From: a virus
Direction: 5' to 3' (one strand)
DNA length: 41,017 bases
IMG/VR virus record: IMGVR_UViG_3300024264_000002
Span: 1 to 41,017 of that record
Shown: one piece after another, positions 1 through 41,017 of the stretch
How positions within the stretch are numbered: the stretch's first letter is position 1
Layout of the letters: every line of letters starts with the position of its first letter
Position numbers and translations under genes: made by a program
Notes under the pieces: generated by a model
Told to the model about the DNA's origin: nothing
The model's database searches: none
Seen by the model: only the letters and a program-made list of their open reading frames with translations

Positions 1-379
1 TATTTACTAGGCATTTTACTACTTCAAGGTTATTATTTATAACAGCAATGTGTAAAGGTGTAATCCCATCTTCGCACCTAGTATTAACATCCGCTCCTTT
101 ATTTACTAGGCATTTTACTACTTCAAGCTTTCCCTCCCGAGCAGCATAATGTAAAGGTGTAATCCCATCTTCGCACCTAGTATTAACATCCGCTCCTTTA
201 TTTACTAGGCATTTTACTACTTCAAGCTTTCCCTCCTGAGCAGCATAATGTAAAGGTGTAATCCCATATTTGTTCCTAGCATTAACATCCGCTCCTTTAT
301 TTACTAGGCATTTTACTACTTCAAGGTTATTATTCATTACTGCATTAAATAATTTTTTGTTTAATTCGTGTTTACTCAT
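1..379 (-). CDS. Ankyrin-repeat protein, N-terminal part only (start codon 377-379; ORF runs off the left edge)
   Basis: The reverse strand from ATG at 379 reads [59 protein letters not shown]... This is 33-aa ANK modules encoded by 99-bp repeats. The start region is near-identical to the ANK gene at 39970..40782. It is absent from the ORF track only because there is no stop inside the window. Confidence 0.8.
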   Translation of the reverse strand, partial: [126 protein letters not shown]

Positions 380-528
380 TTTATTCCTCTATATTCCACT
401 CAGCTTTATTTCTAGCTGAATACGTTAATTTTAATGATCCACCGCTATACATAGCAATATGTTTTACCAGCTTAAAAATGTCTACATTATCATCAGCATA
501 AACTAAATAATTCAGTAGAGTCTCTTTT

Positions 529-963
529 TTAATTGTTGGGGGTTTTTGCATATTTATTAAATATTTCTAGTTCCATTTTAATTACCGAATCTACATTGTC
601 TGAATACCAGCTATAAAACTCACGTACAAAATCATTCCACAACAAAGGAAAGTTATTACTTAAATGCTGACCATTTAATTTTAGTTTTAATTCTTCTATG
701 GCAGCGTTAAATTCTCTTTCTTCTAAAAAGCCAAAATAACCTTTCAAAAAACCTTTATGTTCATCTGAACTCCACCCAGCATTAGGTTTTAACTCAACTT
801 TTTTAAATATTGGTGTTTTACTATTGTATTCTAATAAAAACTTAAGGTACATCCTAGTACCACAAAACTTTGTTGATGTAATTTCTATAAATATCTCGCT
901 ATCTAGAGCAGATTGAATTGAGTCAACTTTTCTACCAGATATTTCAAAATTATACTTACTCAT
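529..963 (-). CDS. Hypothetical protein, last gene of the RecT/exonuclease operon
   Basis: 144-aa ORF whose start overlaps the RecT stop (960-963, ATGA-type coupling). I recognise no motif. Confidence 0.5.
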   Translation of the reverse strand: MSKYNFEISGRKVDSIQSALDSEIFIEITSTKFCGTRMYLKFLLEYNSKTPIFKKVELKPNAGWSSDEHKGFLKGYFGFLEEREFNAAIEELKLKLNGQHLSNNFPLLWNDFVREFYSWYSDNVDSVIKMELEIFNKYAKTPNN

Positions 964-1766
964 GCTACCTCTCTAATACTTTGTAGTTCATTACTAACAT
1001 CGTCAAACTCATCAGCACGCATTGTTAAACCGAGATTCTTTGCCATTCTACGAATTGGCACAACTAACGCCATAGCTTCAAAATGATGACGCCATGGACT
1101 ATCTGACTTATGAGCACCTTTAGACGATGCCTTACTTTGGTCTATTTCATCACGATAACATACTTTGATTTGAGCTTCACCATTCTTTAGCTTAACTACT
1201 CCATAAGTTGCTATTAGCTTATCAAGACTTCTATCCCCATCTCTAGCTGGAATATGCTTAATATTTGGATTCATCCCTAGCTCATACGAAAACTCATCAT
1301 CTTCATATACTGCATAAGAATACACATTTGCTACTTGTGGGCTATTCCATAATAACTTGAGCCATCCTCTATAACCTATTTGAAAACCTAAACTCCCATT
1401 ATATGGTATCATCCAAACTTGACCTAAAGAAGACGCTGGGTCTAGCCCATATTCACAACACTTATAGAATGCATCTATCATAGACTTTTGACTGCACTGC
1501 CTTAGCTTATCGTTAGTATTAATTTCCCAGGCAAAAGAACGTGCCAACTTCTCAAACTGCATAGAGTTATTATTTAAGAATGGAAGTAGCTTATTTCTTC
1601 TCTTGTCGCAAAGGTCATATATAGCATCATTAGGTTTTAGTGCCTTTACTTCTTGTGTAGATACACTTACAACCTCCTGTGCGGTTGTGTTGATTTCTTC
1701 TTGTGTAGACACACTTACTACTTCTGATGTAGATGTGTTGATTTCTTCTTGTGTAGATGTATTCAT
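960..1766 (-). CDS. recT: RecT-family single-strand annealing protein
   Basis: The core ...CCEYGLDPASSLGQVWMIPYNGSLGFQIGYRGWLKLLWNS...VYEDDEF...IKH... is typical of RecT/Bet-like annealases. It lies directly downstream of a YqaJ-type exonuclease. The N-terminus carries a short tandem repeat, STQEEINT..EVVSV. Confidence 0.85.
   Translation of the reverse strand: MNTSTQEEINTSTSEVVSVSTQEEINTTAQEVVSVSTQEVKALKPNDAIYDLCDKRRNKLLPFLNNNSMQFEKLARSFAWEINTNDKLRQCSQKSMIDAFYKCCEYGLDPASSLGQVWMIPYNGSLGFQIGYRGWLKLLWNSPQVANVYSYAVYEDDEFSYELGMNPNIKHIPARDGDRSLDKLIATYGVVKLKNGEAQIKVCYRDEIDQSKASSKGAHKSDSPWRHHFEAMALVVPIRRMAKNLGLTMRADEFDDVSNELQSIREVA
1640..1766. repeat. About 51-bp tandem repeat (about 2.3 copies) encoding the RecT N-terminal tail
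   Basis: The DNA motif gttgatttcttcttgtgtaga(c/t)acacttac recurs. The protein reads STQEEINTSTSEVVSV / STQEEINTTAQEVVSV / STQEV. Confidence 0.8.
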
Positions 1767-1770
1767 ATAA

Positions 1771-2658
1771 CTAACCTCTCATGAATTGTAGAAACCTTGA
1801 GTGAGTTTCCTTTAAATAACTCTGATATATTTCTGGGTTTTGATTTTTTAAAGCTGTTGTATCCAACCTATTTATGGTCCTATCCTTTAAAGCTAGTTTG
1901 CAGAAACCAGCGTCAAGCTGACCTGCATTTTCCATATATACTAATATGGTGTTTTTTAATGATTCTTTTTCTTCTTCTAGCTTTTTCACTTGGTTGGATA
2001 CTTCCTGATATTCTGAAACTACATGACGAATATGATCATCCGCTTTTTTAACTAGCTCAGTATCAATTGATGGATAGGCTATTTTTAATTCCTCTGGTGT
2101 TCTAGGGCGGGGTGGTATTCCTTTAACTATATAATTCTGCCAGAAATCTATTACCGCTTGCTTAAGATTGGCCTCATACTCAGCATCTCTCCAATAAGTA
2201 AAACATGCATATTCCCAACCAGAAAATAACACTGGTATATCTACACGCTCGGCATCTGTTAACATTGCATAGAACGCTACTTGAGCCTTGTAATATTCAG
2301 GCAAACCATTATCCCACGCTGATATATTTGCCTTTGTAGTTTTAGCCTCAATAATAACATTCTGGCCTTTTATCCTGGCGTCAATATTTGCACGCATGAA
2401 TGGATATTCAGAGCTAACTATAGTTGGTATGTTTGTCTCTATAGTTTCACCACTGCGGTCTACATATTCTTTGAGTACAAACTCCTCAGCTAAGATGCCT
2501 CTACGCATATCCGCATTCATTTCGTCAACTACATCAGGGTTAAGCTTGTCATTGTACACGTCTAAAGCCGTTCTCCATGGTGATACTCCAAGGATAGCTG
2601 CACAATCACTGCCTCCTATACCTTTCTTGCGATCTAGTAAAAATTGTTCTCTACTCAT
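1771..2658 (-). CDS. YqaJ-like viral recombinase-associated exonuclease (PD-(D/E)XK)
   Basis: N-terminal GIGGSDCAAILGVSPW is the YqaJ signature. NIDARI...IIEAKTT matches the D...E-x-K catalytic core. It is paired with RecT. Confidence 0.85.
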   Translation of the reverse strand: MSREQFLLDRKKGIGGSDCAAILGVSPWRTALDVYNDKLNPDVVDEMNADMRRGILAEEFVLKEYVDRSGETIETNIPTIVSSEYPFMRANIDARIKGQNVIIEAKTTKANISAWDNGLPEYYKAQVAFYAMLTDAERVDIPVLFSGWEYACFTYWRDAEYEANLKQAVIDFWQNYIVKGIPPRPRTPEELKIAYPSIDTELVKKADDHIRHVVSEYQEVSNQVKKLEEEKESLKNTILVYMENAGQLDAGFCKLALKDRTINRLDTTALKNQNPEIYQSYLKETHSRFLQFMRG

Positions 2659-2893
2659 TCACAACCTCCCAATCATCAGCTAAGATATCTGCAGGCAAAA
2701 AATTGCTGTATTTAGACTCATTCTCATTATTAGGAAAAAAAGTTTTTAAAGGAATTTGCGACATATCACTTTCTGCCGTTGGTTTATATGCTACAAATAT
2801 ATGAACACAACGATTATTATCTGCAAAATACCATGTTTTTCTTCGTACTTTCCTACCTTCATAGGCAAGTTTTAAAGCTTCTATAATATTCAT
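2651..2893 (-). CDS. DUF2829/Tad2-like small protein (candidate anti-Thoeris signal sponge)
   Basis: From the internal Met the protein reads MNIIEALKLAYEGRKVRRKTW... and ends ...PADILADDWEVV. This matches my recollection of the DUF2829 N- and C-terminal signatures (EAL.ALK.GKKVRRKGW ... DLLA.DWE). I trimmed the start to 2893 because that ATG overlaps the upstream stop (ATGA). Confidence 0.5.
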   Translation of the reverse strand: MNIIEALKLAYEGRKVRRKTWYFADNNRCVHIFVAYKPTAESDMSQIPLKTFFPNNENESKYSNFLPADILADDWEVVNE

Positions 2894-3144
2894 GGCAATA
2901 CTACCTCCAAAGGTCTCCATACAACATTTTCTAACAAAATGCCTTCAGATAATTTCTCAGTAGCATCCGCCTTAATATCTAGCTTATCATTAGGCTTTAA
3001 CTCACCTACATACTCGGTATATTCTCTACAGTTAATTAGATACTGCCATTCATAATGACCTTCATCTAATATTAAATAATACGTTAAATCATCTATTGTA
3101 ACGTACCTATCAAAAGAACCTATAAACTCTCTACGATAACTCAT
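2890..3144 (-). CDS. Hypothetical protein
   Basis: ORF in an operon with its neighbours. I trimmed the start to the Met at 3144 (MSYRREF...), 2 nt after the upstream stop. Confidence 0.45.
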   Translation of the reverse strand: MSYRREFIGSFDRYVTIDDLTYYLILDEGHYEWQYLINCREYTEYVGELKPNDKLDIKADATEKLSEGILLENVVWRPLEVVLP

Positions 3145-3909: not shown

Positions 3910-4419
3910 TTAATTATTCCAATTCTCAAGATACTTTTTTACTAGCCGCCTATCTCGTACAATCAAGATATTCTCAGCGTTTCGGGCATCTGCGGACTTA
4001 GTAAAGTTAAAAGAGCCAGTGAGCACTTTTTTCTCATCAATAATCATTATTTTGTTATGAGCTATGCCAGAAACTTTGGCTTTATATATTTTTATTCCTA
4101 CTTCTTCTAATTCTCTTATTAAGGGAAGTTTCTTTTTTGAGAAGTTGCTACTATCAAGGATTATCTCAACATTAACATTACGTTTTGTAGCTTCTTTTAG
4201 TGAGTTAATAATATCTGGATGGGTAAAGCCATACGCTTGGACGTATATACTCTTTTTTGCTTGGTCTATATGACTTACTATGAATGAACCGCATTGATTG
4301 TGCGGAGGAGTGAAGCATACTGAAAATTTAGACTCAGATGCTAAGGACGAAGTGGTAAGAAATAATAATATTAGAAAAAACTTGTTAATAGATCTCATTA
4401 ATCGTCGTAATGTCCCCAC
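3910..4419 (-). CDS. Secreted single-HKD phospholipase D-family protein (Nuc-like endonuclease / PLD)
   Basis: The N-terminal signal-like segment is FFLILLFLTTSSLA. The HKD motif is HNKIMIIDEKKVLTGSFNFTKSA (HxK(x)4D(x)6GSxN). Size and layout resemble plasmid Nuc and small bacterial PLDs. Confidence 0.85.
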   Translation of the reverse strand: MGTLRRLMRSINKFFLILLFLTTSSLASESKFSVCFTPPHNQCGSFIVSHIDQAKKSIYVQAYGFTHPDIINSLKEATKRNVNVEIILDSSNFSKKKLPLIRELEEVGIKIYKAKVSGIAHNKIMIIDEKKVLTGSFNFTKSADARNAENILIVRDRRLVKKYLENWNN

Positions 4420-4658
4420 ATACTTAATATTTTAATCACTTTTTTTTCTTCATTTACTTCATAGACTAATCTATGTTGAATATTAATTCTAATAGATCTT
4501 TTTCCTCTCAGGTCACGATTAAGCTCTTTAGAATTTAAAGGGTGGGGTTCTTTTGTTAACAAATCTCTTGTTTTTTTAGCTTTATTGTAAAGCCCAGCAG
4601 ATTTTAAATTACTAACATGTTTTAGTGCTTTTTTAGTTAGTATTATTTTATATATCAT
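4398..4658 (-). CDS. YoeB/Txe-RelE-superfamily toxin
   Basis: 86 aa, with C-terminal ...RINIQHRLVYEVNEEKKVIKILSMWGHYDD (HRLVY...HY signature). It overlaps the upstream YefM-like gene. Confidence 0.75.
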   Translation of the reverse strand: MIYKIILTKKALKHVSNLKSAGLYNKAKKTRDLLTKEPHPLNSKELNRDLRGKRSIRINIQHRLVYEVNEEKKVIKILSMWGHYDD

Positions 4659-4893
4659 CTGTCCACTCTACACATTCTTCTATAGGCTCTTTGCTAGCCT
4701 CAAGAATTCTTTCAGCCCAACCAGGAACAGAATATATATGCATAGTTTCTAACAAAGATTCGTATTCTTCTTTAGACAACATTACTGCTTCATTACGCTT
4801 ACCTTTAATATATACAGGCTCATGGTGGCTATTAACATCATCCACTAAAGTAAAGAACTTATTTCTAGCTTGGCTTGTTGTGTATATTTGCAT
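4648..4893 (-). CDS. Phd/YefM-family antitoxin
   Basis: MQIYTTSQARNKFFTLVDDVNSHHEPVYIKGKRNEAVMLSKEEYESLLET is the classic YefM N-terminal fold signature. It lies upstream of, and overlaps, the toxin gene. Confidence 0.8.
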   Translation of the reverse strand: MQIYTTSQARNKFFTLVDDVNSHHEPVYIKGKRNEAVMLSKEEYESLLETMHIYSVPGWAERILEASKEPIEECVEWTDDI

Positions 4894-4996: not shown

Positions 4997-5524
4997 TTAT
5001 TGCTCCTCTAAATCAAAACCGTATTCACTCATGCATAAATAAAATAAGTCCTCATCAAATTGAGTATAAACTTGAGGATCTTGCCTTCTGTCATTAGCTA
5101 CTGTCTTCATACCATCGCCAATACTAGCCATTGTCATATTATCTAATTCTGCATAAGCATTTTTTGTTGGCAAATCTTTATATTTCTGAAAACCTTCCGC
5201 AAGTGCATCTGTTGCAGTTGGTTGATGTGGTATAACAATAGTTTGTGTTGCCTTTTTTTGACAGACACGTTCAGCAGCTTGTCTTTTTAATTCCTGTTTT
5301 TCTGCTTTTGATGATTTCTTTTTAACAGACTTTGTTTGTTTTTGTTGTATGGGTTCATAAGCCTTATACTTCCAAGGGTTTTTCCATTGATCTAATTCTT
5401 GATTATACTCTGGTGTATTAGGTTTAATTTTTACATGACGATAATAATCATCCCATGATGTCTCATGCGTGCAGGAACTCACTATAAATAACACAAATAT
5501 ACACAAAAAGTTTCTCATATACAT
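4997..5524 (-). CDS. Lipoprotein (possible superinfection-exclusion or surface protein)
   Basis: From the internal Met the protein reads MYMRNFLCIFVLFIVSSC, a signal peptide plus a lipobox Cys. The mature part is Lys/Gln-rich. I trimmed the start relative to the ORF track (5572) to remove the overlap with the upstream gene. Confidence 0.6.
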   Translation of the reverse strand: MYMRNFLCIFVLFIVSSCTHETSWDDYYRHVKIKPNTPEYNQELDQWKNPWKYKAYEPIQQKQTKSVKKKSSKAEKQELKRQAAERVCQKKATQTIVIPHQPTATDALAEGFQKYKDLPTKNAYAELDNMTMASIGDGMKTVANDRRQDPQVYTQFDEDLFYLCMSEYGFDLEEQ

Positions 5525-5528
5525 ACCT

Positions 5529-5816
5529 TTAATCTCGAACAAATTGATAAAAATGTTCCAGTTTTTCTTCATTTAACTTATAACAACTCATTTTTTCTTC
5601 TATTTTACTTAATACTCCTTTTAACCTTAAACTCTTTAAGGCTGAATAAATCGAAGTATGAGATAATTTTAGTTCGAGTTGTAACTCCTTGGGGCTAATA
5701 ATCACCACACTATTTTTTTCTATATCTATAAATTTTTGCAAAATATTACTCTCTGCAACTGTAAAAAAGCTAGATAAACTAACAGTTTTTTTTAATTTTT
5801 CTTTATTCAACGTCAT
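5529..5816 (-). CDS. Small winged-helix/HTH regulator (candidate repressor of the switch region)
   Basis: 95 aa. LKLSHTSIYSALKSLRLKGVL looks like a wHTH recognition segment. It is transcribed divergently from the early operon across an operator-like repeat array. Confidence 0.5.
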   Translation of the reverse strand: MTLNKEKLKKTVSLSSFFTVAESNILQKFIDIEKNSVVIISPKELQLELKLSHTSIYSALKSLRLKGVLSKIEEKMSCYKLNEEKLEHFYQFVRD

Positions 5817-6010: not shown

Positions 6011-6196
6011 TGAAATAGTTGAGTTTTGACATGAATAATCATGTGATTGTAGGCGGCTATTTTTGGTAAAATTTAAAAAATAGGCAAAAAAAGAGGCCCA
6101 ACTATGACAGAAAGACCCTTAAGAATTTTCTTTAGTATCAAAATCGTTAACACCCCCTTTCGTGATTTATTAACTAATGTAAAAAATATTTTTATT

Positions 6197-6206
6197 AAAT
6201 TGCGAG
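6197..6206 (+). promoter_or_regulatory. AAATTGCGAG box, copy 1 (5 nt upstream of ATG 6212)
   Basis: Exact 10-mer; see findings. Confidence 0.6.
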
Positions 6207-6211
6207 AAATA

Positions 6212-7045
6212 ATGACAAAATATTTTTACTTCTTATTAACCTTAACCTTTAGAAGAATAAGGGACCATAGCTTTTATTTTTTAATCAAAACTAAACTACT
6301 TAAACAATATATGACATATTTAATTTATTTTGTAAAGCAAAAAATCCCAAAATCGGCATATTACGTAACTTGTGAAACTCATATATACTATTACGTTATA
6401 AAAATTTCATGGAGAAATAATTTGCTTGAATTAAATGCAATTGAATTATACGCACTACAAGATCATTTTCAAGATGAAGGGCTGTGTGAAGCTGGTGCTG
6501 AATGGTTATCTAGATTATCTGTTCATATAGGCCCTTACAAATCATGCGTTACTATAAAACAAATGATGAGGTATACAAAAAAATCTCGTACTCGTTGTTA
6601 TGAATATTTCAGGGATTCATTAAAATTAAAGTTAATCAATAAAAGTAGAACTCCTTCAATAGGTAATCATAATTGTATATCGATACAAATACCTATAAGG
6701 TTTTTATCACCTAAGCAAAAAGAAAACCCCTTCCTCACTTTCTACGGCAAACCAGTAGAAGAAATAGTTACAAACTATGATGGTAAAATCATTAAAGAAA
6801 TTAAACTACTAGATGTATACAGCACAGATGGACATATCCATTTTAAAGAATACTGGATACTCAAAGAAGTAGCTACAGAATCAGAATCAGAATCAGAATC
6901 AGAATCAGAATCAGAATCAGAATCAGAATCAGAATCAGAATCAGAATCAGACTCTATTTGTTTTAAAGCTGTACCTTATACATCTAAATCAAAACATTTT
7001 TTACTCAAAACACTTCAAATTAAACCTTTAGGAGTACACGCATGA
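6212..7045 (+). CDS. Hypothetical early protein with a C-terminal (Glu-Ser)12 tract
   Basis: The ORF track starts at 6104. That N-terminus looks like translated AT-rich leader. I placed the start at ATG 6212, right after the conserved box, but the true start could be further downstream. Confidence 0.4.
   Translation: MTKYFYFLLTLTFRRIRDHSFYFLIKTKLLKQYMTYLIYFVKQKIPKSAYYVTCETHIYYYVIKISWRNNLLELNAIELYALQDHFQDEGLCEAGAEWLSRLSVHIGPYKSCVTIKQMMRYTKKSRTRCYEYFRDSLKLKLINKSRTPSIGNHNCISIQIPIRFLSPKQKENPFLTFYGKPVEEIVTNYDGKIIKEIKLLDVYSTDGHIHFKEYWILKEVATESESESESESESESESESESESESDSICFKAVPYTSKSKHFLLKTLQIKPLGVHA
6878..6949 (+). repeat. Perfect hexanucleotide microsatellite (GAATCA)12 inside a CDS
   Basis: 72 bp of uninterrupted gaatca units encoding ESESES... 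Confidence 0.95.
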
Positions 7046-7660: not shown

Positions 7661-7958
7661 AATAGAAATAGAAAACGAATATAAAAGAATTTTTAACAAT
7701 CTACTACATATAGCTTTAGAAGATACATCTCTAATAGGTCTATTCGGTTGTTCTTTACAAGGTGCAGCTGTTGATTTAATGGGAGCTATAAGCAAAAGGG
7801 ATAGAGAAAAACTCGAAAACAATCAGAGAAAATTAACCTCTTTTAGTAAAGATTTTGAATTAGCTTTTAAAGAGTTCAATAACCTGACTCAATTGCTAAC
7901 TGAGGCACTTAATAACGAAATATCTTTGAAAGAAGGTAGTGAGGTGCCTCATGCTTAG
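7653..7958 (+). CDS. Hypothetical early protein
   Basis: 101-aa ORF that overlaps its neighbours. Confidence 0.45.
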   Translation: MNKIEIENEYKRIFNNLLHIALEDTSLIGLFGCSLQGAAVDLMGAISKRDREKLENNQRKLTSFSKDFELAFKEFNNLTQLLTEALNNEISLKEGSEVPHA

Positions 7959-11345: not shown

Positions 11346-11374
11346 TTGTCAATAACTGATGGAACAGGTATAAT
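11346..11374 (+). promoter_or_regulatory. Near-consensus sigma70-type promoter upstream of terS (late/packaging operon)
   Basis: TTGTCA (11346-11351), a 17-nt spacer, then TATAAT (11369-11374). Confidence 0.6.
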
Positions 11375-11384
11375 ACAATCACTT

Positions 11385-11394
11385 AAATTGCGAT
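11385..11394 (+). promoter_or_regulatory. Box variant AAATTGCGAT (8 nt upstream of ATG 11403)
   Basis: 9/10 match to the box. It starts 10 nt after the -10 hexamer. Confidence 0.5.
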
Positions 11395-11402
11395 ATTATA
11401 CA

Positions 11403-28959: not shown

Positions 28960-28962
28960 ATA

Positions 28963-29001: not shown

Positions 29002-29011
29002 AAATTGCGAG
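29002..29011 (+). promoter_or_regulatory. AAATTGCGAG box, copy 4 (10 nt upstream of ATG 29022)
   Basis: Exact 10-mer. Confidence 0.6.
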
Positions 29012-29021
29012 GTATAATGAT

Positions 29022-34271: not shown

Positions 34272-34904
34272 ATGAAAAAAATAACAGCACTTGATATAGC
34301 CAATTATTTTCTTATTCTTTTAGATAGAGATGAAGGAGATTCTATCACTCATCTAAAATTGCAAAAATTGATATATTTTGCCCAAGGTATATCTATATCG
34401 CTAACAGATAAACTATTATTTGATGAGCCTATGATGGCATTACAACATGGTCCTGTTAGTAGTAGTGTTTATAATATTTTCAAAGTGTTTGGCAATAACA
34501 CTATCCCACAGCCGCCAGAAATGGATTTTGATATATATGATCAATCTGTAAAAAACTTGATATATAAAGTTTATAATATTTATGGAGAACATACTGCTTC
34601 TTATTTACGTAATCTCAGTCATGAACATTCTTCTTGGATAAAAGCATTTAACACTCAAGAGAGGACTATAAATTATAAAGAAGTAAAAAATGATTTTATT
34701 AAAAATAATCACTCTATTGAAAATTTAGATGTTTCAGATACAGCTAAGCAATCTATAATTGATGCCGAAGATAGATGGTGGATGAGTTACGATTGCGGCG
34801 TCCCTTCTGAAAACATCACTGAAAGGTTAGCTAGAAATATGGAGCTAATGCAGCAAGACAAACAAGCTTTTATTGATTCTTGTGTTACAATAGAAGGTTT
34901 TTAA
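34272..34904 (+). CDS. Panacea-domain (DUF4065, SocA/GepA-like) antitoxin-type protein
   Basis: N-terminal ITALDIANYFLILL....ITHLKLQKLIYFAQG...HGPV is the DUF4065 signature as I recall it. Its stop overlaps the toxin ATG (TAATG). Confidence 0.7.
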   Translation: MKKITALDIANYFLILLDRDEGDSITHLKLQKLIYFAQGISISLTDKLLFDEPMMALQHGPVSSSVYNIFKVFGNNTIPQPPEMDFDIYDQSVKNLIYKVYNIYGEHTASYLRNLSHEHSSWIKAFNTQERTINYKEVKNDFIKNNHSIENLDVSDTAKQSIIDAEDRWWMSYDCGVPSENITERLARNMELMQQDKQAFIDSCVTIEGF

Positions 34905-35170
34905 TGAATGTTATTTTTGAAAAAAATGCCAAAAATGATGTGATTTTCTGGCAAAAGAAAAATAAGTTTATTATCTCTAAAATTAAATCATTAATTAAAA
35001 ATATTAAGGTGACTCCTTACCAAGGTATTGGTAAACCTAAGCCTTTAAAGCATAACTTTTCTGGATTCTGGTCTAGAAGAATTAACCATGAGCATCGGTT
35101 AGTTTATGAGGTATTAGAAGAAGATAGTATTGTTATTATACACTCTTGTAGAGGTCATTATATTGACTAA
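34904..35170 (+). CDS. yoeB: YoeB-family toxin
   Basis: [46 protein letters not shown] closely parallels E. coli YoeB ([28 protein letters not shown]...CRYHY). The start is trimmed to the ATG at 34904. Confidence 0.85.
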   Translation: [88 protein letters not shown]

Positions 35171-35399: not shown

Positions 35400-35642
35400 T
35401 TAGTTTGCCTCGTATGTTTTGTATATTAAGTATTCTTGTTTAAAGAAGTATAGATCGTTAAGCCAACTGTTAAGATGAGGACACTTTCCGCCATTGCAGA
35501 CAATCTCAAGCTCATCAGCAACCCCTTTACCAGCTATAGGCATATCAGGAAAATCAGAACCTTTTAATCCACTACAGTTTGTCTTGGCGCATCCGCTCAA
35601 TATTGCCGCTAACGTCAACAGACTTAGTATTTTTTGCAACAT
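35400..35642 (-). CDS. o-spanin (outer-membrane lipoprotein, Rz1-like)
   Basis: MLQKILSLLTLAAILSGC has a lipobox. The protein is small and periplasmic. Its start is embedded in the 3' end of the i-spanin gene in another frame. Confidence 0.6.
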   Translation of the reverse strand: MLQKILSLLTLAAILSGCAKTNCSGLKGSDFPDMPIAGKGVADELEIVCNGGKCPHLNSWLNDLYFFKQEYLIYKTYEAN

Positions 35643-35817
35643 TTATTACCTTTTTTTGTATCTCTATAGTTTTATTCTGATTAGTATTAATATTGTTTAA
35701 TGCCTTATTTTTTTTGGAAAGTCTGCTGTTACGACCAAGCAAAAATAAACTAAGAATAGCTAATATAGCTAATCCAGCGGTCTCTAATTTACTGAATAGA
35801 AAGCTAAATATTTTCAT
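35572..35817 (-). CDS. i-spanin (Rz-like)
   Basis: N-terminal TM segment AGLAILAILSLFLL followed by a charged helical domain. It overlaps the o-spanin gene by 71 nt. Confidence 0.55.
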   Translation of the reverse strand: MKIFSFLFSKLETAGLAILAILSLFLLGRNSRLSKKNKALNNINTNQNKTIEIQKKVINVAKNTKSVDVSGNIERMRQDKL

Positions 35818-35977
35818 AGTTTTCGTCTAAAATAGAAAAACTGGATTTTTCACCAACCAACTTTGATTCTGATATTTCAATATATTCAGACTGAACAGTT
35901 TGATTACCTTTAAATGGGTCCAATATTTTATCAATATCTATATTTGATTCATCTATTTCACTTATTGGTTTTTGCAT
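35804..35977 (-). CDS. Small acidic hypothetical protein (57 aa)
   Basis: An ORF that fills the gap between the DUF1064 and i-spanin genes. It is below the ORF-track cut-off. Confidence 0.3.
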   Translation of the reverse strand: MQKPISEIDESNIDIDKILDPFKGNQTVQSEYIEISESKLVGEKSSFSILDENYENI

Positions 35978-35979
35978 AT

Positions 35980-36291
35980 TTAAATCTCTACAATGTCTAT
36001 ATTATATTTATCTTTCATCCAAGCCTTCTTAAGCTTGTATACTGGTGTTTTAAAGCCTTTAACATCTTCTACTGTCTCTGTTCCATTTCTCCACTTAACA
36101 AAGAAGTCGCATACATAGCGATAACGACCAGCTAGCTTATAGGATTTCTGCAATTCAAACTCTTTAACCCTACAAGATTGTTTTAATATTTTTAGCTCAT
36201 GATAGCGTTTAGCTTCTTTCTTAGAGGCAAAACGTATTCCATCAACAATTGTAGGTTGGTTTCTGTATTTGCTTTTCTTTATAAAATCCAT
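35980..36291 (-). CDS. DUF1064-family phage protein
   Basis: KYRNQPTIVDGIRFASKKEAKRYHELKIL matches the DUF1064 N-terminal pattern (K...K..VDGI.F.SK.EA.RY.EL). Confidence 0.6.
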   Translation of the reverse strand: MDFIKKSKYRNQPTIVDGIRFASKKEAKRYHELKILKQSCRVKEFELQKSYKLAGRYRYVCDFFVKWRNGTETVEDVKGFKTPVYKLKKAWMKDKYNIDIVEI

Positions 36292-36719
36292 AGCTTTAAT
36301 TCTTCTTGGCGCCTTCTATATAAACCATTAGAAAATTTGCCTTTAATATTAACAACTCCTTTTTCCTTGCTAAAAAATTCTTCAGCAGCTTTGGTGTAAT
36401 TAGCTTCATTTAAAACTTTTAAACCTTTTGAATTTCCAAAATTTCTAAAACCCCAATTGTATATAAGACTAGAAAGAGCATCAAATTGAGCTTGTGATAG
36501 TTCTACTTTAATAATATTTTTTAGGTAATATTCAATTTTTAGTAAATCACTTTTAAGTAAATTGTGAGCTGATTCTTCGGTTATTTTTGTTATAGGTGAT
36601 GGATTAATAATAACATGACCATAGCCAATTGTATTTTTACCAGCAGGACATTTGTAAGGGGTAGGACGAAATCCTTCAAATTCTTTGATTAAATTGATAC
36701 AGTTAATTGATGCTTCCAT
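36279..36719 (-). CDS. Endolysin, GH24 phage lysozyme family
   Basis: LIKEFEGFRPTPYKCPAGKNTIGYGH carries the catalytic Glu context (EG.R..PY.D..G..TIGYGH). The start is trimmed to the Met at 36719, 1 nt after the upstream stop. Confidence 0.85.
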   Translation of the reverse strand: MEASINCINLIKEFEGFRPTPYKCPAGKNTIGYGHVIINPSPITKITEESAHNLLKSDLLKIEYYLKNIIKVELSQAQFDALSSLIYNWGFRNFGNSKGLKVLNEANYTKAAEEFFSKEKGVVNIKGKFSNGLYRRRQEELKLWIL

Positions 36720-36720
36720 T

Positions 36721-37878
36721 TTATACCAACTCCTGATTTTGAGATAAATCTTCCGAACCATCACCAAGCAGAGACATTTGCAACTCTTCCTGCTCATGAT
36801 GTGTATGCGTTGGCATTAATGCGTTAAATATGCCGTTAGCTTCAAGATTTGCATGAGATATAAACATTGGAACAAATAAACCTCCTCTTAATAGAGGATT
36901 CCATCCATCAGTTGCCTCTAATCCAGCGGAAACAAGAGGTAGAGCAAACCAACAACCTTCGGCAGCAGAAAACACACCTAAAGCAACTTCTTTTGCTCCT
37001 ATATGCTCTTTATGAGGTAAAAACAGTTTCTTGAGCTTAGAATGCTCATTAACAGCAACAACAGCATTACTAATAACGCCACTAGTAATGATACTTAATG
37101 CTAGTGAAGCTTCTTTGTGCAAGCCAATATTTTCTAGTAGTTCATTAGTTAAGTGCATATAAGTAATGCATCTTGCCACTAAAGCAATGCTATCTATACC
37201 ATACACTGCTATTTTAGAACCTAAGCTATTTAACTCGTGAGCATTAACTAGTTCATGCTTCACAAACTCACTAGTTTCTTCATAGTTACCTAGTGCTTTA
37301 AAAATAATCAATGGTATGCTAGAAATTGCAGCCCAAGCCATGAATTGATCAAAACCACTTGTACCTTCTACTTCCTGATTGTCAAATTCAATATTCCAAA
37401 GCATTACCAGAGGAGCTATTGAGGCAGCACCTGCCAAAGCTTTACATGCAACTAAAGACTTCGTCTGAAACTCAGTTAATTCATGTTCTTCGTTATCTGA
37501 ATGACTAAAGAACTTATACAGAAAAAAAGCAGCATAGCTACTCATTAAAAATAATGTATTCAATGTCGAAATGGTAAAGAGTGAGCTATTCTCATGAACA
37601 TCAATACCATATCTATCTAAATGCTCCACTTCTTCATTGAATATTGGCATCATAGCCATACCAACGCCTAAGCCAATAAAGGCACTTAGTCCGCCTATTA
37701 AAGCCTTCTTCTTGCAACTACTACCTACATTGTTAGAGTTAAGTGATGATTGAGATTGAATGTTTTGCTCTAGCTGATCAGGTATATGAGAAGGCAATAA
37801 ATTATCATCAAGGCTGAAACGCCTTTTAGCATTAATAACTACATTAGTTTTTTCTTCAAAAGAGCTTTGAGTCTTCAT
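36721..37878 (-). CDS. Large polytopic membrane protein of unknown function
   Basis: 385 aa. A hydrophilic N-terminal ~65 aa is followed by many hydrophobic segments. It lies immediately upstream of the endolysin. Confidence 0.55.
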   Translation of the reverse strand: MKTQSSFEEKTNVVINAKRRFSLDDNLLPSHIPDQLEQNIQSQSSLNSNNVGSSCKKKALIGGLSAFIGLGVGMAMMPIFNEEVEHLDRYGIDVHENSSLFTISTLNTLFLMSSYAAFFLYKFFSHSDNEEHELTEFQTKSLVACKALAGAASIAPLVMLWNIEFDNQEVEGTSGFDQFMAWAAISSIPLIIFKALGNYEETSEFVKHELVNAHELNSLGSKIAVYGIDSIALVARCITYMHLTNELLENIGLHKEASLALSIITSGVISNAVVAVNEHSKLKKLFLPHKEHIGAKEVALGVFSAAEGCWFALPLVSAGLEATDGWNPLLRGGLFVPMFISHANLEANGIFNALMPTHTHHEQEELQMSLLGDGSEDLSQNQELV

Positions 37879-38543: not shown

Positions 38544-39059
38544 TTAATCTACCAAACCACCATTTTTACCTTTTAATGTACGTCTGATTGCTCCTTTTAC
38601 ACAAGCATCCTTATAACGCTGTGTTCCGCAATAAATACGGCAGAAATAAAATGCCTTTTTATTACTTATATTAAAGATTTTTGCTATTTCCTTATGTATA
38701 CCAATAGCGAGTGGTCGCGCTGGTTTATCTTTTGGAGGAAAGGCTTTTGGGTTAGATTCTTGAAGTTGTAGCAATATTTTATAATATTGGTTTATACTAA
38801 TCGGAGTTTCTAAGAACTTTTCGTATTCTGTTTTTGGCTTTAATGCCTTTAGTCTAGCCTCTTCTTTTGCCTTAGCTTCTGCTTCCTTTTTAGCTTGATA
38901 TTTGTTTAAAGCATTATTAGCTGATACCTTACCGCCTTTGCCAATAAATATTTCCGAACGCTTAGGCTCTGGTGGCTTTGGTTTAGGTATTCTTGCTTGT
39001 AACTTAAGTAATGCTTCGCCTGACAGCTTAAGCTTTAGTGTAGGTTTCTGTTCAGTCAT
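38544..39059 (-). CDS. FinO/ProQ-domain RNA chaperone
   Basis: N-terminal MTEQKPTLKLKL parallels F-plasmid FinO (MTEQKRPVLTLK). A Lys-rich helix follows. The C-terminal ARPLAIGIHKEIAKIF...KKAFYFCRIYCGTQRYKDACVKGAIRRTLKG parallels FinO PRLLACGIRDVL...[29 protein letters not shown]. Confidence 0.75.
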   Translation of the reverse strand: MTEQKPTLKLKLSGEALLKLQARIPKPKPPEPKRSEIFIGKGGKVSANNALNKYQAKKEAEAKAKEEARLKALKPKTEYEKFLETPISINQYYKILLQLQESNPKAFPPKDKPARPLAIGIHKEIAKIFNISNKKAFYFCRIYCGTQRYKDACVKGAIRRTLKGKNGGLVD

Positions 39060-39071: not shown

Positions 39072-39260
39072 TTATGAGTTTTTCTTTATAACTTTACGTA
39101 AAGATGTAATGATTAGTTCAGTTATAGTAATATCGTTCTCTAATGCGTATCTCTTTATTTCCTTATGTAAGGATTTATCTATATTAATATTCATTTTCAT
39201 TTTCTCTACTTTGTCTATTTTTACTTTTGCAGATGGTCTGCCTGATTTTAATAAACTCAT
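39072..39260 (-). CDS. ParG-like ribbon-helix-helix partition/centromere-binding protein
   Basis: 62 aa. A flexible basic N-terminus precedes the RHH-like NINIDKSLHKEIKRYALENDITITELI. The ATGA overlap joins it to the parA stop. Confidence 0.55.
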   Translation of the reverse strand: MSLLKSGRPSAKVKIDKVEKMKMNINIDKSLHKEIKRYALENDITITELIITSLRKVIKKNS

Positions 39261-39883
39261 ATTATCTGCTTTAACTCTTCTACTATATTTATGATTTCTT
39301 CTATTGCATCAATGTTTTTTGGAGCATCAAATATACTTTTGCCTTGTGCTGCCGATTTTGGATATACTACGCGTTGCGATGTACTAGCTTGCATTGTTGG
39401 TAATTCATAGCCATTTAACGCCTCTAATACTTCATTACTCAGCGTTGTATTTGCTATCTTCCTACTAATACAGAAATACGCTTTAGGTTTTCCATCTGCT
39501 ATAGATTGTCGTTGCTTAATTATATCTACTAAATCAGAAGACGCCCAAATATCATATGGGGAAGGTTGTACAGGTATAATAATTAAGTCAGAACATTTAA
39601 TAGAAGATATTGCCATTTCTGCTAATTGTGGAGCACCATCGATAATTATCCAATCAAATTGACCTGCTATTTTTTGTATATTCTTATCTAAATTTGGTCT
39701 ATCCAGTCCTATTACTGGCAAATCACTATCACCCGATGCGTGCCAATCTCGAGCTGAACCTTGAGGGTCAGAATCTATCAATACGACTTTCTCATTATCA
39801 AGATGGAGCTTTGTAGCTATATTAGTAGCTAATGTTGTCTTACCAACACCGCCTTTTTGGTTGAGTATTGCTATTACATGCAT
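39257..39883 (-). CDS. parA: ParA-family partition ATPase (small type Ib)
   Basis: Deviant Walker A NQKGGVGKTTLA and the IIDGAP motif, at 208 aa. Confidence 0.9.
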   Translation of the reverse strand: MHVIAILNQKGGVGKTTLATNIATKLHLDNEKVVLIDSDPQGSARDWHASGDSDLPVIGLDRPNLDKNIQKIAGQFDWIIIDGAPQLAEMAISSIKCSDLIIIPVQPSPYDIWASSDLVDIIKQRQSIADGKPKAYFCISRKIANTTLSNEVLEALNGYELPTMQASTSQRVVYPKSAAQGKSIFDAPKNIDAIEEIINIVEELKQII

Positions 39884-39969
39884 GTTGATATCTTTATATA
39901 TATTTGTAAGTATATATATAACTTTATATATTTTAAAGTCAATCTTGTTAATGGTAAATCCGTATTGAT

Positions 39970-40782
39970 TTATTCATTATTCCCCCTAGCATCAACATCC
40001 GCTCCTTTATTTACTAGGCATTTTACTACTTCAAGCTTTCCCTCCCGAGCAGCATAATGTAAAGGTGTAGTCCCATTTTCGTTCCTAGCATTAACATCCG
40101 CTCCTTGCCCTACTAGGCATTTTACTACTTCAAGGTTATTATTTATAACAGCAATGTGTAAAGGTGTAATCCCATCTTCGTCCCTAGCATTAACATCCGC
40201 TCCTTTATTTACTAGGCATTTTACTACTTCAAACTTTCCCTCCTGAGCAGCATAATGTAAAGGTGTAATCCTATCTTGGTCCCTAGCATCAACATCCGCT
40301 CCTTGCCCTACTAGGCATTTTACTACTTCAAAGTCTTCCTTCCGAGCAGCAATGTATAAAGGTGTAATCCCATCTTCGTCCCTAGCATTAACATCCGCTC
40401 CTTTATTTACTAGGCATTTTACTACTTCAAGCTTTCCCTCCTGAGCAGCATAATGTAAAGGTGTAATCCTATCTTGGTCCCTAGCATCAACATCCGCTCC
40501 TTGCCCTACTAGGCATTTTACTACTTCAAGCTTTCCCTCCCGAGCAGCAATGTGTAAAGGTGTAATCCCATATTCGTCCCTAGCATTAACATTCGCTCCT
40601 TGCTCTACTAGGCATTTTACTACTTCAAGCTTTCCCTCCCGAGCAGCAATGTGTAAAGGTGTAATCCCATCTTCGTCCCTAGCATTAACATCCGCTCCTT
40701 GCTCTACTAGGCATTTTACTACTTCAAGGTTATTATTCATTACTGCATTAAATAATTTTTTGTTTAATTCGTGTTTACTCAT
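39970..40782 (-). CDS. Ankyrin-repeat protein (7 full modules plus 1 degenerate N-terminal module)
   Basis: Tandem 33-aa units [33 protein letters not shown] are encoded by near-identical 99-bp repeats. Confidence 0.9.
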   Translation of the reverse strand: [270 protein letters not shown]

Positions 40783-40866
40783 TTTATTCCTCTATATTCC
40801 ATTCAGCTTTATTTCTAGTTGAATACGTTAATTTTAATGATCCACCGCTATACATAGCAAATTGAT

Positions 40867-41017
40867 TTATTCATTATTCCCCCTAGCATCAACATCCGCT
40901 CCTTTATTTACTAGGCATTTTACTACTTCAAGGTTATTATTTATAACAGCAATGTGTAAAGGTGTAATCCCATCTTCGCACCTAGTATTAACATCCGCTC
41001 CTTTATTTACTAGGCAT
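40867..41017 (-). CDS. Ankyrin-repeat protein, C-terminal part only (continues beyond the right edge; probably the same gene as 1..379 if the molecule is circular)
   Basis: The stop codon at 40867-40869 sits in the same ATTGATTTATTCATTATTCCCCC context as the stop of the gene at 39970. Positions 40905-41017 are identical to 1-113. Confidence 0.7.
   Translation of the reverse strand, partial: [49 protein letters not shown]

What the first reader, a model, noticed from the sequence alone, without database searches (positions are those of the whole stretch)
1..41017. The window behaves as a closed ~40.9-kb replicon: a virion-encoding element with plasmid partition genes and no integrase
Seen: positions 1-113 are identical to 40905-41017, and joining them reconstitutes a 138-codon ankyrin ORF (40867..41017 plus 114..379). 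The window contains a complete packaging, head, tail and lysis set. It also carries ParA, a ParG-like RHH protein, two TA modules and a FinO-like protein. I found no integrase or recombinase, no att-like tRNA fragment and no flanking host genes. I could not recognise a tape measure, tube or sheath gene, which suggests a short-tailed virion. Inference: this is an extrachromosomal phage-plasmid with eukaryote-directed cargo (ankyrins, patatin, secreted PLD).
Basis: partly seen in the sequence, partly recalled or inferred. Interest (0 to 1): 0.6.

Follow-up and report, generated by a model that had tools for sequence, protein, structure and literature searches.

The report
Rickettsia-family short-tailed phage with plasmid partition genes
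This is the complete 40.9-kb genome of a short-tailed phage of a Rickettsia-family intracellular bacterium; it has no integrase but carries the partition and RNA-chaperone genes of Rickettsia plasmids, so it probably persists as a plasmid, although that state is inferred and not shown.

Summary
The window is a whole IMG/VR virus record whose ends share an exact 113-nt overlap; the unit genome is 40,904 nt. The overlap lies inside a 99-nt-period ankyrin array whose internal repeats already share exact matches of up to 98 nt, so alone it is weak evidence. Two related contigs (G001, G004) run unbroken across the window's ends, which confirms the circular gene order.

The gene content is as described, with three corrections:
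- RecT and a YqaJ exonuclease are present.
- The "PLD" is a signal-peptide-bearing Nuc/NucT-like single-HKD protein.
- No lysogeny repressor is recognisable.

The closest named relative is Megaira phage MAnkyphage. A fold match to podophage tail adaptors supports a short tail.

The phage-plasmid reading is likely (about 0.6) but unproven:
- No tyrosine integrase occurs in the window or in 19 related records.
- ParA, the ParG-like protein and FinO are conserved under purifying selection.
- Their nearest homologues are on Megaira and Rickettsia plasmids.
- A lambda-like iteron origin sits inside a candidate initiator gene.

A circular assembly cannot separate a plasmid from a circularly permuted virion genome. 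This scan earlier noted a similar partition cassette in a contractile-tailed Rickettsia-family phage on other DNA.

The parts
1..113 (.). Terminal overlap, left copy (identical to 40905-41017); lies inside ankyrin repeats
   Evidence: Exact identity. 99-nt array. Background exact repeats up to 98 nt.
40905..41017 (.). Terminal overlap, right copy
2..379 (-). Ankyrin gene ANK1, 5' part; continues across the junction to 40867 (138 aa, 4 repeats)
   Evidence: Pfam Ank_2 1.6e-44. Circular ORF.
40867..41017 (-). ANK1, 3' part as seen at the right end of the window
39970..40782 (-). Ankyrin gene ANK2 (270 aa, 8 repeats). Tandem paralogue of ANK1: a 75-nt upstream piece at 40784-40858 duplicates 381-455.
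   Evidence: Pfam 7e-122. Self-blastn 82-92% nt. Both ANK genes absent from G001 and G004.
39257..39883 (-). ParA, small deviant-Walker-A partition ATPase (208 aa; KGGVGKTT)
   Evidence: Pfam AAA_31/CbiA. 69% identical to ParA of Megaira and Rickettsia plasmids. 88% to G001/G004 with dN/dS 0.05.
39884..39969 (-). parA promoter/operator candidate: TTGACT followed by a repeated ATATATAAAG flanking a TA palindrome; conserved in G001. No long centromere array seen.
   Evidence: Sequence, (inference).
39072..39260 (-). ParG-like ribbon-helix-helix protein (62 aa), overlapping the parA stop
   Evidence: 49% to the gene next to ParA on Megaira plasmid CP113869.1. Profile hits RHH proteins: SvtR 1.8e-4, omega 0.13, ParG 0.48. 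dN/dS 0.10-0.19.
38544..39059 (-). FinO/ProQ-domain RNA chaperone (171 aa)
   Evidence: Pfam ProQ 5.9e-11, 42.8 bits against cut-off 27. Best tblastn hits are Rickettsia plasmids at about 40%. None in 50,697 phage records. dN/dS 0.05-0.10.
960..2658 (-). RecT (960-1766) and YqaJ exonuclease (1771-2658): homologous-recombination pair
   Evidence: Pfam 1e-33 and 1.1e-21.
2651..2920 (-). Tad2-like (DUF2829) protein
   Evidence: Pfam 5.3e-9.
3910..4419 (-). Single-HKD PLD-family protein with a Sec signal peptide (Nuc/NucT-like)
   Evidence: PLDc_2 2.9e-29. NucT models 3e-19, all below NCBIfam cut-offs. Signal peptide read from the sequence. Homologues.
4398..4893 (-). TA module 1: Phd/YefM antitoxin (4648-4893) plus ParE/YoeB-like toxin (4398-4658)
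4997..5816 (-). Lipoprotein (4997-5572) and a 95-aa winged-helix candidate regulator (5529-5816). These are divergent from the rightward early operon; the GC-skew minimum lies here.
6104..7045 (+). 313-aa protein with a (CAGAAT)x12.7 repeat. Winged-helix leads only; no recombinase signal.
7939..9543 (+). Candidate replication initiator (534 aa)
   Evidence: Homologues carry HTH_36/HTH_11. Atlas leads HTH_36/DnaA_N/Phage_rep_O. No Pfam, PHROG or PDB sequence hit.
8460..8625 (+). Candidate origin inside the initiator gene: three 22-nt iterons, an 11-nt perfect inverted repeat and an A/T-rich tract (lambda ori-in-O arrangement). The same array is present in G001.
10304..10765 (+). SSB
   Evidence: Pfam 4.3e-33.
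11346..13020 (+). Small terminase candidate (11346-11810) and large terminase of the Terminase_3 type (11779-13020)
13021..14187 (+). Patatin-like phospholipase between TerL and the fibre genes; this position is conserved in MAnkyphage, G004 and G015
14184..17619 (+). Tail fibre genes (556, 136 and 442 aa; the last carries an S74 chaperone domain)
18397..22569 (+). Portal (18397-20217), scaffold candidate (20214-21143), major capsid protein (21364-22569)
   Evidence: P22_portal 1.2e-55. PDB portals. phrog_334.
23073..25846 (+). Tail adaptor (201 aa) and nozzle candidate (718 aa) of a short tail
   Evidence: Adaptor model pLDDT 72 matches podophage adaptors, TM 0.5-0.6. Nozzle model is poor (pLDDT 48); its top Foldseek hits are podophage tail complexes but TM is only 0.1-0.2. 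MAnkyphage homologues are annotated gp11/gp12.
25836..33555 (+). Six further virion genes (fibre-like and internal/ejection-protein candidates), syntenic with MAnkyphage
34272..35170 (+). TA module 2: Panacea-domain antitoxin (34272-34904) plus YoeB toxin (34880-35170)
35400..37878 (-). Lysis region: overlapping spanin-like pair, DUF1064, GH24 endolysin (36279-36797) and a 385-aa membrane protein

Best explanation
The window is the complete, circularly mapping 40.9-kb genome of a temperate-type short-tailed phage. It belongs to the MAnkyphage-like group and infects a Megaira/Rickettsia-family intracellular bacterium.

It most likely persists between lytic cycles as a low-copy plasmid rather than by integration:
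- A phage-encoded initiator would fire an iteron origin that lies inside its own gene.
- A type-Ib-like ParA plus RHH (ParG-like) pair would segregate the copies.
- Two toxin-antitoxin pairs would penalise loss.
- A FinO-domain RNA chaperone of Rickettsia-plasmid type probably assists antisense-RNA control.

RecT/YqaJ and SSB would serve recombination-dependent replication. Terminase, portal, capsid, adaptor/nozzle and fibres would build a podovirus, and endolysin with spanins would release it.

Shown: gene content, circular order, conservation and selection of the par/FinO block, absence of integrases across the family.

Inferred: the plasmid state, the origin, the function of each maintenance gene, and the host.
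For: Circular order:
- 113-nt end overlap.
- Two relatives span the junction.
- Four complete relatives have end overlaps of 22-120 nt; for the three whose junctions I mapped, they fall at different genome positions from each other and from the window. This is as expected of circular maps, not fixed termini.

No site-specific recombinase:
- No PF00589 or PF00239 in the window.
- 0 of 19 related records have a tyrosine integrase. Only G015 (and, by its record's annotation, MAnkyphage) has a small serine resolvase.
- No host flanks in the window, G001 or G004.

Partition and FinO block:
- Intact Walker motifs in ParA, with dN/dS 0.05.
- ParG-like dN/dS 0.10-0.19 and FinO 0.05-0.10, comparable to capsid, portal and TerL.
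- ParA is 69% identical to ParA of Megaira and Rickettsia plasmids.
- The ParG-like protein is 49% identical to the partner gene on the Megaira plasmid.
- The FinO domain matches 8 Rickettsia plasmids and no phage record.
- Three unrelated ParA-plus-small-partner cassettes sit at two different places in sub-lineages of the family.

Replication:
- Iterons, an inverted repeat and an AT tract lie inside the initiator gene and are conserved in G001.

Precedents in the same host world:
- The 64-kb circular Megaira plasmid CP113869.1 carries this ParA type with RecT, YqaJ and terminase-like genes.
- The R-body plasmid pKAP298 keeps a homologous TerL-portal-capsid-nozzle module plus a ParA.

Host signal:
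- GC 33.8%, against 33.9% for MAnkyphage and 34.0% for the fetched 40.6-kb stretch of the Megaira plasmid.

Definition: phages that carry plasmid partition or replication genes are the operational phage-plasmid candidates of Pfeifer et al. 2021 (PMC7969092).
Against: - No read, coverage or host-genome data exist, so the plasmid state is not observed.
- A circular assembly is also what a headful-packaged, circularly permuted genome gives.
- No CI-like repressor, HTH_3 or S24 domain was found, so a lysogeny switch is not identified.
- No multi-repeat centromere was found near parA.
- MAnkyphage and two complete relatives (G016, G017) have no ParA-like gene, so partition is not universal in the family.
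- Partition genes also occur in some phages regarded as virulent (the BigBertha community caveat in PMC7969092).
- The initiator assignment rests on weak leads.
Confidence: 0.6

Rival explanations
1. It is a virulent phage, or a phage kept only in a carrier state. Its circular map comes from circular permutation and terminal redundancy. The par/FinO/TA genes are accessory cargo, for example for positioning replicating phage DNA or for defence, and do not support a stable plasmid prophage.
For: - No recognisable repressor.
- No centromere array.
- ParA is absent from MAnkyphage, G016 and G017.
- Terminase_3-type TerL, closest to phages of several morphotypes; the packaging type was not determined.
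- The partition-genes-in-virulent-phages caveat (PMC7969092).
Against: - The gene set is temperate-type: RecT/YqaJ, SSB, host-dependent replication, no DNA or RNA polymerase.
- Two TA modules are present.
- The par/FinO block is under selection as strong as on virion genes.
- Partition cassettes were acquired repeatedly within the family.
- The inferred host is an obligate intracellular symbiont, where a purely lytic phage would have few routes to new hosts (inference).
Confidence: 0.25
2. It is an integrating prophage that uses a host recombinase (XerCD-type) or an unrecognised recombinase among its unknown proteins. The contig then represents the excised circle.
For: Several proteins remain without assignment: 313, 191, 166, 144 and 385 aa. 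A small serine resolvase exists in MAnkyphage and G015.
Against: - No integrase domain in six frames.
- None in 19 relatives.
- No tRNA or att-like fragment.
- No relative with host flanks.
- The one scan of 185,579 species genomes with the portal found only a 4.5-kb MAG contig.
- Atlas leads for the 313-aa protein are winged-helix, not recombinase.
Confidence: 0.1
3. The 113-nt overlap is a repeat-induced assembly artefact, and the contig is an incomplete or mis-closed piece of a longer molecule.
For: The ends lie in an ankyrin array whose internal repeats share exact matches of up to 98 nt. 113 is not, as far as I know, a usual assembler k-mer (own knowledge).
Against: - G001 and G004 bridge the ends with the same flanking genes.
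- All functional modules are present once.
- CheckV completeness is 100%.
- Complete relatives are 38-44 kb.
- At most, the number of ankyrin repeats at the junction is wrong.
Confidence: 0.04

Closest known systems
Megaira polyxenophila phage MAnkyphage_25.80 (OP381185.1; 38,448 bp, circular record; from Cryptomonas sp. SAG 25.80)
   Same: - Syntenic virion module: portal 44%, capsid 44%, nozzle 45%, adaptor 37% aa identity.
- Patatin sits between terminase and fibre genes.
- Shared YqaJ exonuclease, lysozyme-DUF1064 lysis block, Panacea + YoeB pair and ankyrin genes.
- Same GC (33.9%).
- No tyrosine integrase annotated.
   Different: - MAnkyphage has no ParA-like gene and no tblastn match to the window's FinO; its PLD, RecT and SSB also gave no tblastn match.
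- It has a small 'resolvase', a different large terminase (no tblastn hit) and a different replication module.
- Identities of 25-47% place the window in a separate clade with G001, G004 and a Tara Oceans contig.
Phage-plasmids (P1, N15, SSU5 and the groups of Pfeifer et al. 2021, PMC7969092)
   Same: Complete phage functions together with plasmid partition genes, TA addiction modules and no integrase. This is the operational signature used to call phage-plasmids.
   Different: - No sequence relationship to the defined groups was seen. The megablast of positions 1-25000 against 50,697 phage records and of 20000-41017 against 72,556 plasmids was empty.
- Morphology is podovirus.
- The inferred host is an obligate intracellular Rickettsiaceae bacterium.
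- The plasmid state is unobserved.
- I found no paper describing a Rickettsiales phage-plasmid; the Wolbachia-plasmid paper PMC9560607 only raises the possibility.
Caedibacter taeniospiralis R-body plasmid pKAP298 (NC_005915.1, 49 kb), a phage-derived plasmid of a Paramecium endosymbiont
   Same: Homologous head-tail module in the same order: TerL 22%, portal 26% (E 1e-50), scaffold 25%, capsid 31%, nozzle 23% (E 7e-40), 667-aa protein 27%. It also has a ParA. It is a bona fide circular plasmid of a protist endosymbiont (PMC7297999 and PMC3583457).
   Different: The host is a gammaproteobacterium. The plasmid is degraded and transposon-laden, carries reb genes, and its ParA is only 25% identical. 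It has no patatin, FinO or ankyrin genes.
Rickettsiaceae plasmids: Ca. Megaira plasmid CP113869.1, Rickettsia pREIP-type, pRPR and pRM; also Wolbachia pWCP/pWALBA
   Same: - ParA 69% and its small downstream partner 49% identical.
- FinO domain about 40% identical.
- Wolbachia plasmids have the same ParA + ParG-like + RelBE core (PMC9560607).
   Different: Those plasmids do not share this virion module. ParA and FinO are not adjacent on the two Rickettsia plasmids that appear in both hit lists. CP113869.1 carries phage-type genes of its own (a terminase-like family protein and a phage GroES-like protein); they gave no tblastn match to the window.

Membership tests
Phage-plasmid (Pfeifer et al. 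2021) | Encodes the functions of a phage: packaging, virion, lysis | tested here: met
   TerL, portal, capsid, adaptor, fibres, endolysin.
Phage-plasmid (Pfeifer et al. 2021) | Encodes a plasmid partition system | tested here: met
   ParA is over Pfam cut-offs and 69% identical to Rickettsiaceae plasmid ParA. RHH partner present. Purifying selection.
Phage-plasmid (Pfeifer et al. 2021) | Encodes a replication initiator and origin | tested here: inconclusive
   The 534-aa protein has only weak initiator leads. An iteron / inverted repeat / AT-rich array lies inside the gene and is conserved in G001.
Phage-plasmid (Pfeifer et al. 2021) | Maintained extrachromosomally in lysogens | not testable with these tools
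Phage-plasmid (Pfeifer et al. 2021) | Temperate: has a lysogeny control module | tested here: not met
   No HTH_3 or Peptidase_S24. Only weak winged-helix candidates at 5529-5816 and 6104-7045. A novel repressor is not excluded.
MAnkyphage-like podophages | Homologous, syntenic virion module with patatin between terminase and fibre | tested here: met
MAnkyphage-like podophages | Host is Megaira or a related Rickettsiaceae bacterium | not testable with these tools
   Inferred from ParA and FinO best hits and from GC. There is no host linkage in the record.
Type Ib partition system (ParF/ParG-like) | Small deviant-Walker-A ATPase without an N-terminal HTH | tested here: met
   208 aa with KGGVGKTT at residues 10-17.
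Type Ib partition system (ParF/ParG-like) | Downstream ribbon-helix-helix centromere-binding protein | tested here: inconclusive
   The profile's top PDB hits are mostly RHH proteins (SvtR 1.8e-4, omega 0.13, CopG 0.35, ParG 0.48), but only one is significant. Pfam hits are below cut-off.
Type Ib partition system (ParF/ParG-like) | Centromere of multiple direct repeats next to the operon | tested here: not met
   Only a two-copy ATATATAAAG motif around a TA palindrome in the 86-nt upstream region. TRF finds no array there.
FinO/ProQ family | FinO/ProQ domain over the curated threshold | tested here: met
   PF04352, 42.8 bits against cut-off 27.
P22-like phages | P22-type portal together with P22-type tail (gp4/gp10/gp26/gp9) | tested here: not met
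   The portal matches PF16510, but the adaptor folds like T7 gp11 / KP32 TTPA-type adaptors. No P22 tail proteins were detected.
T7-like fixed direct terminal repeats | Terminal repeat at a conserved, non-coding genome end | tested here: not met
   The overlap lies inside a coding ankyrin repeat. Relatives have overlaps of 22, 55, 88 and 120 nt; the three whose junctions were mapped lie at different positions.
Nuc/NucT single-HKD nucleases | Single HKD domain of about 160 aa with an N-terminal signal peptide | tested here: inconclusive
   PLDc_2 2.9e-29. The best NCBIfam hits are NucT models, but all fall below their cut-offs. Signal peptide read from the sequence. Substrate is unknown.

The most novel reading that the evidence does not exclude
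A whole lineage of integrase-less podophages of Rickettsiaceae symbionts of protists lives as phage-plasmids. In this reading, the lineage has repeatedly captured partition cassettes, and here also a FinO chaperone, from its hosts' plasmids. It ferries ankyrin and patatin genes. It is also the ancestral stock of the R-body 'killer' plasmid pKAP298. Its iteron origin plus par block would then be a natural minimal replicon for these genetically intractable bacteria.
Probability: 0.35. Interest if true: 0.7.

Novelty: new member of a known kind. Interest (0 to 1): 0.5.

Why it matters
- Phages of Rickettsiales other than Wolbachia WO are almost unknown; MAnkyphage was the only named phage record my searches recovered for a Rickettsiaceae host.
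- An integrase-less relative that carries the partition and FinO genes of Rickettsia-type plasmids suggests how a phage can be inherited vertically inside an obligate intracellular symbiont.
- It links three things usually treated apart: Rickettsiaceae plasmids, symbiont phages and the Caedibacter killer plasmid.
- A defined origin/initiator plus a ParA/ParG block from such an element is also a candidate starting point for replicons in bacteria that are very hard to manipulate.

The kind of element (phage-plasmid) is well known, and the plasmid state here is inferred. The value is that of a well-supported new member, not a new principle.

Tried and rejected
- Megablast of positions 1-25000 against phages and of 20000-41017 against plasmids: no match.
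I could therefore not scan Rickettsiales genomes for integrated copies.
- The single genome-contig scan gave only a 4.5-kb contig binned as Flavobacteriales, probably mis-binned.
The 42.7-kb and 54-kb contigs that encode initiator homologues could not be inspected, and the listing of cluster members gave no accessions.
- George et al. 2023 (Curr Biol) is not held. What I say of it rests on the GenBank record and on a review.
- Supplement search of the Megaera LgJac paper, whose 37.7-kb and 33.0-kb 'plasmids' might be relatives, was uninformative.
- Nozzle structure: the model was too poor (pLDDT 48) for a firm fold call, and the profile found nothing in PDB sequences.
- Initiator: no Pfam, PHROG, NCBIfam or PDB sequence hit.
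- A lambda-type repressor was sought and not found.
- No Rfam family or tRNA.
- Rejected: fixed T7-like terminal repeats.
- Rejected: membership of P22-like phages beyond the portal.
- Rejected: the PLD as a clear eukaryote-directed phospholipase.

Full report
**What the window is.** The window is the whole of its record: one contig of 41,017 nt, held as an IMG/VR virus genome classed 'direct terminal repeats' with CheckV completeness 100. GC is 33.8%.

**Check of the observation.**
- Positions 1-113 are identical to 40905-41017, and this is the longest end overlap.
- Removing one copy gives a 40,904-nt circle. On it a 138-codon minus-strand ORF (40867..40904 joined to 1..379) is open. It consists of ankyrin repeats.
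- The overlap lies inside a 99-nt-period array. Other repeat pairs in the two ankyrin genes share exact matches of 98, 97 and 87 nt.
- The 113-nt identity by itself is therefore weak evidence, and the number of repeats at the junction is uncertain.

**Independent evidence for circular order.** Two related IMG/VR contigs settle the gene order.
- G001 (34,375 nt) and G004 (40,959 nt, CheckV 100%, ends in a tail gene near window position 30.2 kb) are collinear with the window.
- Both run without a break from ParA through the 56-aa ORF to RecT, that is, across the window's two ends.
- Neither has the ankyrin genes. ANK1 and ANK2 are a lineage-specific insertion that was tandemly duplicated together with about 75 nt of upstream sequence (40784-40858 resembles 381-455).
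- Four further complete relatives have end overlaps of 22, 55, 88 and 120 nt. For the three whose junctions I mapped (22, 55, 120 nt) the overlap falls at a different genome position in each, and none matches the window's.
- These are therefore overlaps of circular maps, not conserved physical termini.

**Gene content.**
- *Leftward arm:* RecT, YqaJ exonuclease, a Tad2-like protein, a single-HKD PLD-family protein, Phd + ParE/YoeB-like, a lipoprotein and a small winged-helix protein.
- *Rightward arm:*
  - early genes: a 313-aa protein, three small ORFs, a 534-aa protein and SSB;
  - packaging: TerS candidate and TerL (Terminase_3), followed by patatin;
  - head and fibres: three fibre genes, P22-type portal, scaffold candidate and capsid;
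  - tail: a 201-aa and a 718-aa tail protein, and six more virion genes;
  - cargo: Panacea + YoeB.
- *Leftward again:* spanin-like pair, DUF1064, GH24 endolysin, a 385-aa membrane protein, FinO/ProQ, a 62-aa protein, ParA and ANK2.
- There is no tRNA and no Rfam family.

**Short tail.** The 201-aa protein gave a usable model (pLDDT 72). It matches tail adaptors of podophages (Pa223, SU10, KHP30, A4, N4, KP32 tail tubular protein A, T7 gp11) with probability 1.0 and TM 0.5-0.6. The 718-aa model was poor (pLDDT 48). Its best Foldseek hits are podophage tail complexes (Pam1, A4, LME-1 and T7 among them) but TM scores are 0.1-0.2, so I treat this only as consistent. No tape measure, tube or sheath family was hit. 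The short-tail inference is supported.

**Relatives and host.**
- The only named relative is Megaira polyxenophila phage MAnkyphage_25.80 (OP381185.1; circular; host Ca. Megaira polyxenophila in Cryptomonas SAG 25.80).
- Portal and capsid are 44% identical, the nozzle 45%, and the virion module is syntenic. Patatin lies in the same place between terminase and fibres. The lysis block and the Panacea-YoeB pair are shared.
- Twenty-seven IMG/VR loci and nine metagenome loci (three of which duplicate IMG/VR loci) carry related portals. The metagenome set includes a Tara Oceans scaffold.
- The window forms a closer clade with G001 and G004, with portal identity of 77-89%.
- GC equals that of MAnkyphage (33.9%) and of the fetched 40.6-kb stretch of a Megaira plasmid (34.0%).
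- ParA is 69% identical to ParA of Ca. Megaira plasmid CP113869.1 and of Rickettsia endosymbiont plasmids.
- The FinO domain has its best matches on eight Rickettsia plasmids (about 40%) and none in 50,697 phage records.
- I therefore assign the host to the Megaira/Rickettsia family. This is an inference, not a demonstrated link.

**Is it a plasmid prophage? Evidence in favour.**
1. No tyrosine or serine recombinase domain occurs in six frames of the window. None of 19 related records has a tyrosine integrase. Only G015 (and, by annotation, MAnkyphage) has a small resolvase-type serine recombinase, the kind plasmids use for multimer resolution.
2. ParA has intact deviant Walker A, A' and B motifs. 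ParA, the 62-aa partner and FinO are conserved in G001 and G004 at dN/dS 0.05-0.19 with dS near 1, like capsid, portal and TerL.
3. The 62-aa protein is 49% identical to the gene following ParA on the Megaira plasmid. Its profile mostly picks ribbon-helix-helix proteins from the PDB: SvtR at 1.8e-4, then omega, CopG and ParG at weak E-values.
4. Other sub-lineages carry different ParA + small-partner cassettes (59% and 30% identical ParA) placed next to the terminase rather than next to the lysis genes. Partition functions were thus acquired more than once.
5. Inside the 534-aa gene lie three 22-nt iterons (8460-8520, with a partial fourth at 8611-8624), an 11-nt perfect inverted repeat and an A/T-rich tract. 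G001 has the same arrangement at the same place. This is the layout of the lambda origin inside gene O (established knowledge). Homologues of the protein carry HTH_36/HTH_11, and Atlas leads point to DnaA_N/Phage_rep_O-type initiators.
6. Two toxin-antitoxin pairs are present.
7. Precedents exist in the same setting:
   - the 64-kb circular Megaira plasmid carries this ParA type with RecT, YqaJ and terminase-like genes;
   - pKAP298, the R-body plasmid of the Paramecium symbiont Caedibacter, long suspected to derive from a phage (PMC3583457, PMC7297999), keeps a homologous TerL-portal-scaffold-capsid-nozzle module in the same order, plus a ParA.

By the operational criteria of Pfeifer et al. 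2021 (phage functions plus plasmid partition or replication genes; integrases not required) the element is a phage-plasmid candidate (PMC7969092).

**Evidence against, or missing.**
- Nothing here observes the plasmid state. A circular assembly is equally expected from a circularly permuted virion genome.
- No lambda-type repressor domain is found.
- No multi-repeat centromere lies next to parA. There is only a short repeated motif around a TA palindrome overlapping a promoter-like TTGACT.
- MAnkyphage, G016 and G017 have no ParA-like gene.
- Pfeifer et al. themselves caution that partition genes occur in phages regarded as virulent.
- I put the phage-plasmid reading at about 0.6, a virulent or carrier-state phage with accessory par genes at about 0.25, integration by a host or unrecognised recombinase at about 0.1, and an assembly artefact at under 0.05.

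**The 'eukaryote-directed cargo'.**
- The ankyrins are recent, variable cargo.
- Patatin is a conserved member of the structural operon across the family.
- The PLD-family protein has a clear Sec signal peptide. It scores best against NucT nuclease models, all below their curated cut-offs. Several of its near homologues sit on metagenomic contigs of 34-58 kb, which is phage size. A periplasmic Nuc-type nuclease is at least as likely as a phospholipase aimed at the eukaryote.

**Comparison with what is known, and novelty.**
- Phage-plasmids and MAnkyphage are both known. I found no paper that describes a Rickettsiales phage-plasmid; the Wolbachia-plasmid paper only raises the possibility.
- Earlier notes of this scan report, on other DNA, a contractile-tailed Rickettsia-family phage with the same kind of ParA/RHH cassette, and a MAnkyphage relative with host-plasmid genes. 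These agree with my reading but are not independent evidence.
- I file the element as a new member of a known kind. Three points are of moderate interest: the FinO gene, unmatched among phage records; the iteron origin; and the link to pKAP298.

**Limits.** Rickettsiales genomes could not be scanned for integrated copies. The primary MAnkyphage paper is not held.

Noticed in passing
window 8460-8625; G001 (L012/L005 region homologous to window 7939-9543): Three 22-nt iterons, an 11-nt perfect inverted repeat and an A/T-rich tract lie inside the 534-aa gene. The layout resembles the lambda origin inside gene O. G001 has a near-identical iteron array. G004 has a long palindrome plus an A-rich tract at the equivalent place, but no iterons.
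   Followed up: partly
L014 (pKAP298, NC_005915.1) 16082-25134: The phage-derived part of the Caedibacter R-body plasmid is homologous to, and collinear with, the MAnkyphage-type head-tail module: TerL, portal (26%, E 1e-50), scaffold, capsid (31%) and nozzle (23%, E 7e-40). I did not find this relationship stated in the papers read.
   Followed up: partly
L013 (Ca. Megaira plasmid CP113869.1) 961-3087, 19962-20818, 33342-40621: A closed 64-kb 'plasmid' of Megaira strain NDG2 carries the same ParA/small-partner type together with RecT, YqaJ, a terminase-like gene and other phage-type genes. It looks like another phage-plasmid or a remnant of one.
   Followed up: partly
window 11779-13020 compared with L006 8302-9759: The large terminase has been swapped within the family. 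The window, G001 and G004 have a 413-aa Terminase_3 enzyme, closest to Nitratiruptor and Bdellovibrio phages at 46-49%. MAnkyphage, G015 and G008 have an unrelated terminase of about 486 aa, while the downstream patatin and fibre genes stay homologous.
   Followed up: partly
window 6876-6951: A perfect (CAGAAT)x12.7 hexanucleotide repeat lies inside the 313-aa early gene. It is a possible site of length variation.
   Followed up: no
window 381-455 and 40784-40858: The 3' end of the 56-aa ORF is duplicated upstream of ANK2. This marks a tandem duplication of an [upstream piece + ankyrin gene] unit. Relatives have a small unrelated ORF at this spot.
   Followed up: yes
L049 (G015) 6577-9172; L021 (G008) 642-1578: Other sub-lineages carry different ParA + small-partner cassettes, placed divergently next to the terminase. 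In G015 a small serine resolvase lies about 1.4 kb away.
   Followed up: partly
window 4997-5572: A 191-aa protein with a lipoprotein signal (…IVSSC) sits next to the divergent early promoter region. Its function is unknown; it could be a surface or superinfection-exclusion protein.
   Followed up: no
L001 (CAYPJC010000215.1): A 4.5-kb contig with an 84%-identical portal is binned in a MAG labelled Flavobacteriales. This is probably a binning error and not a host signal.
   Followed up: no
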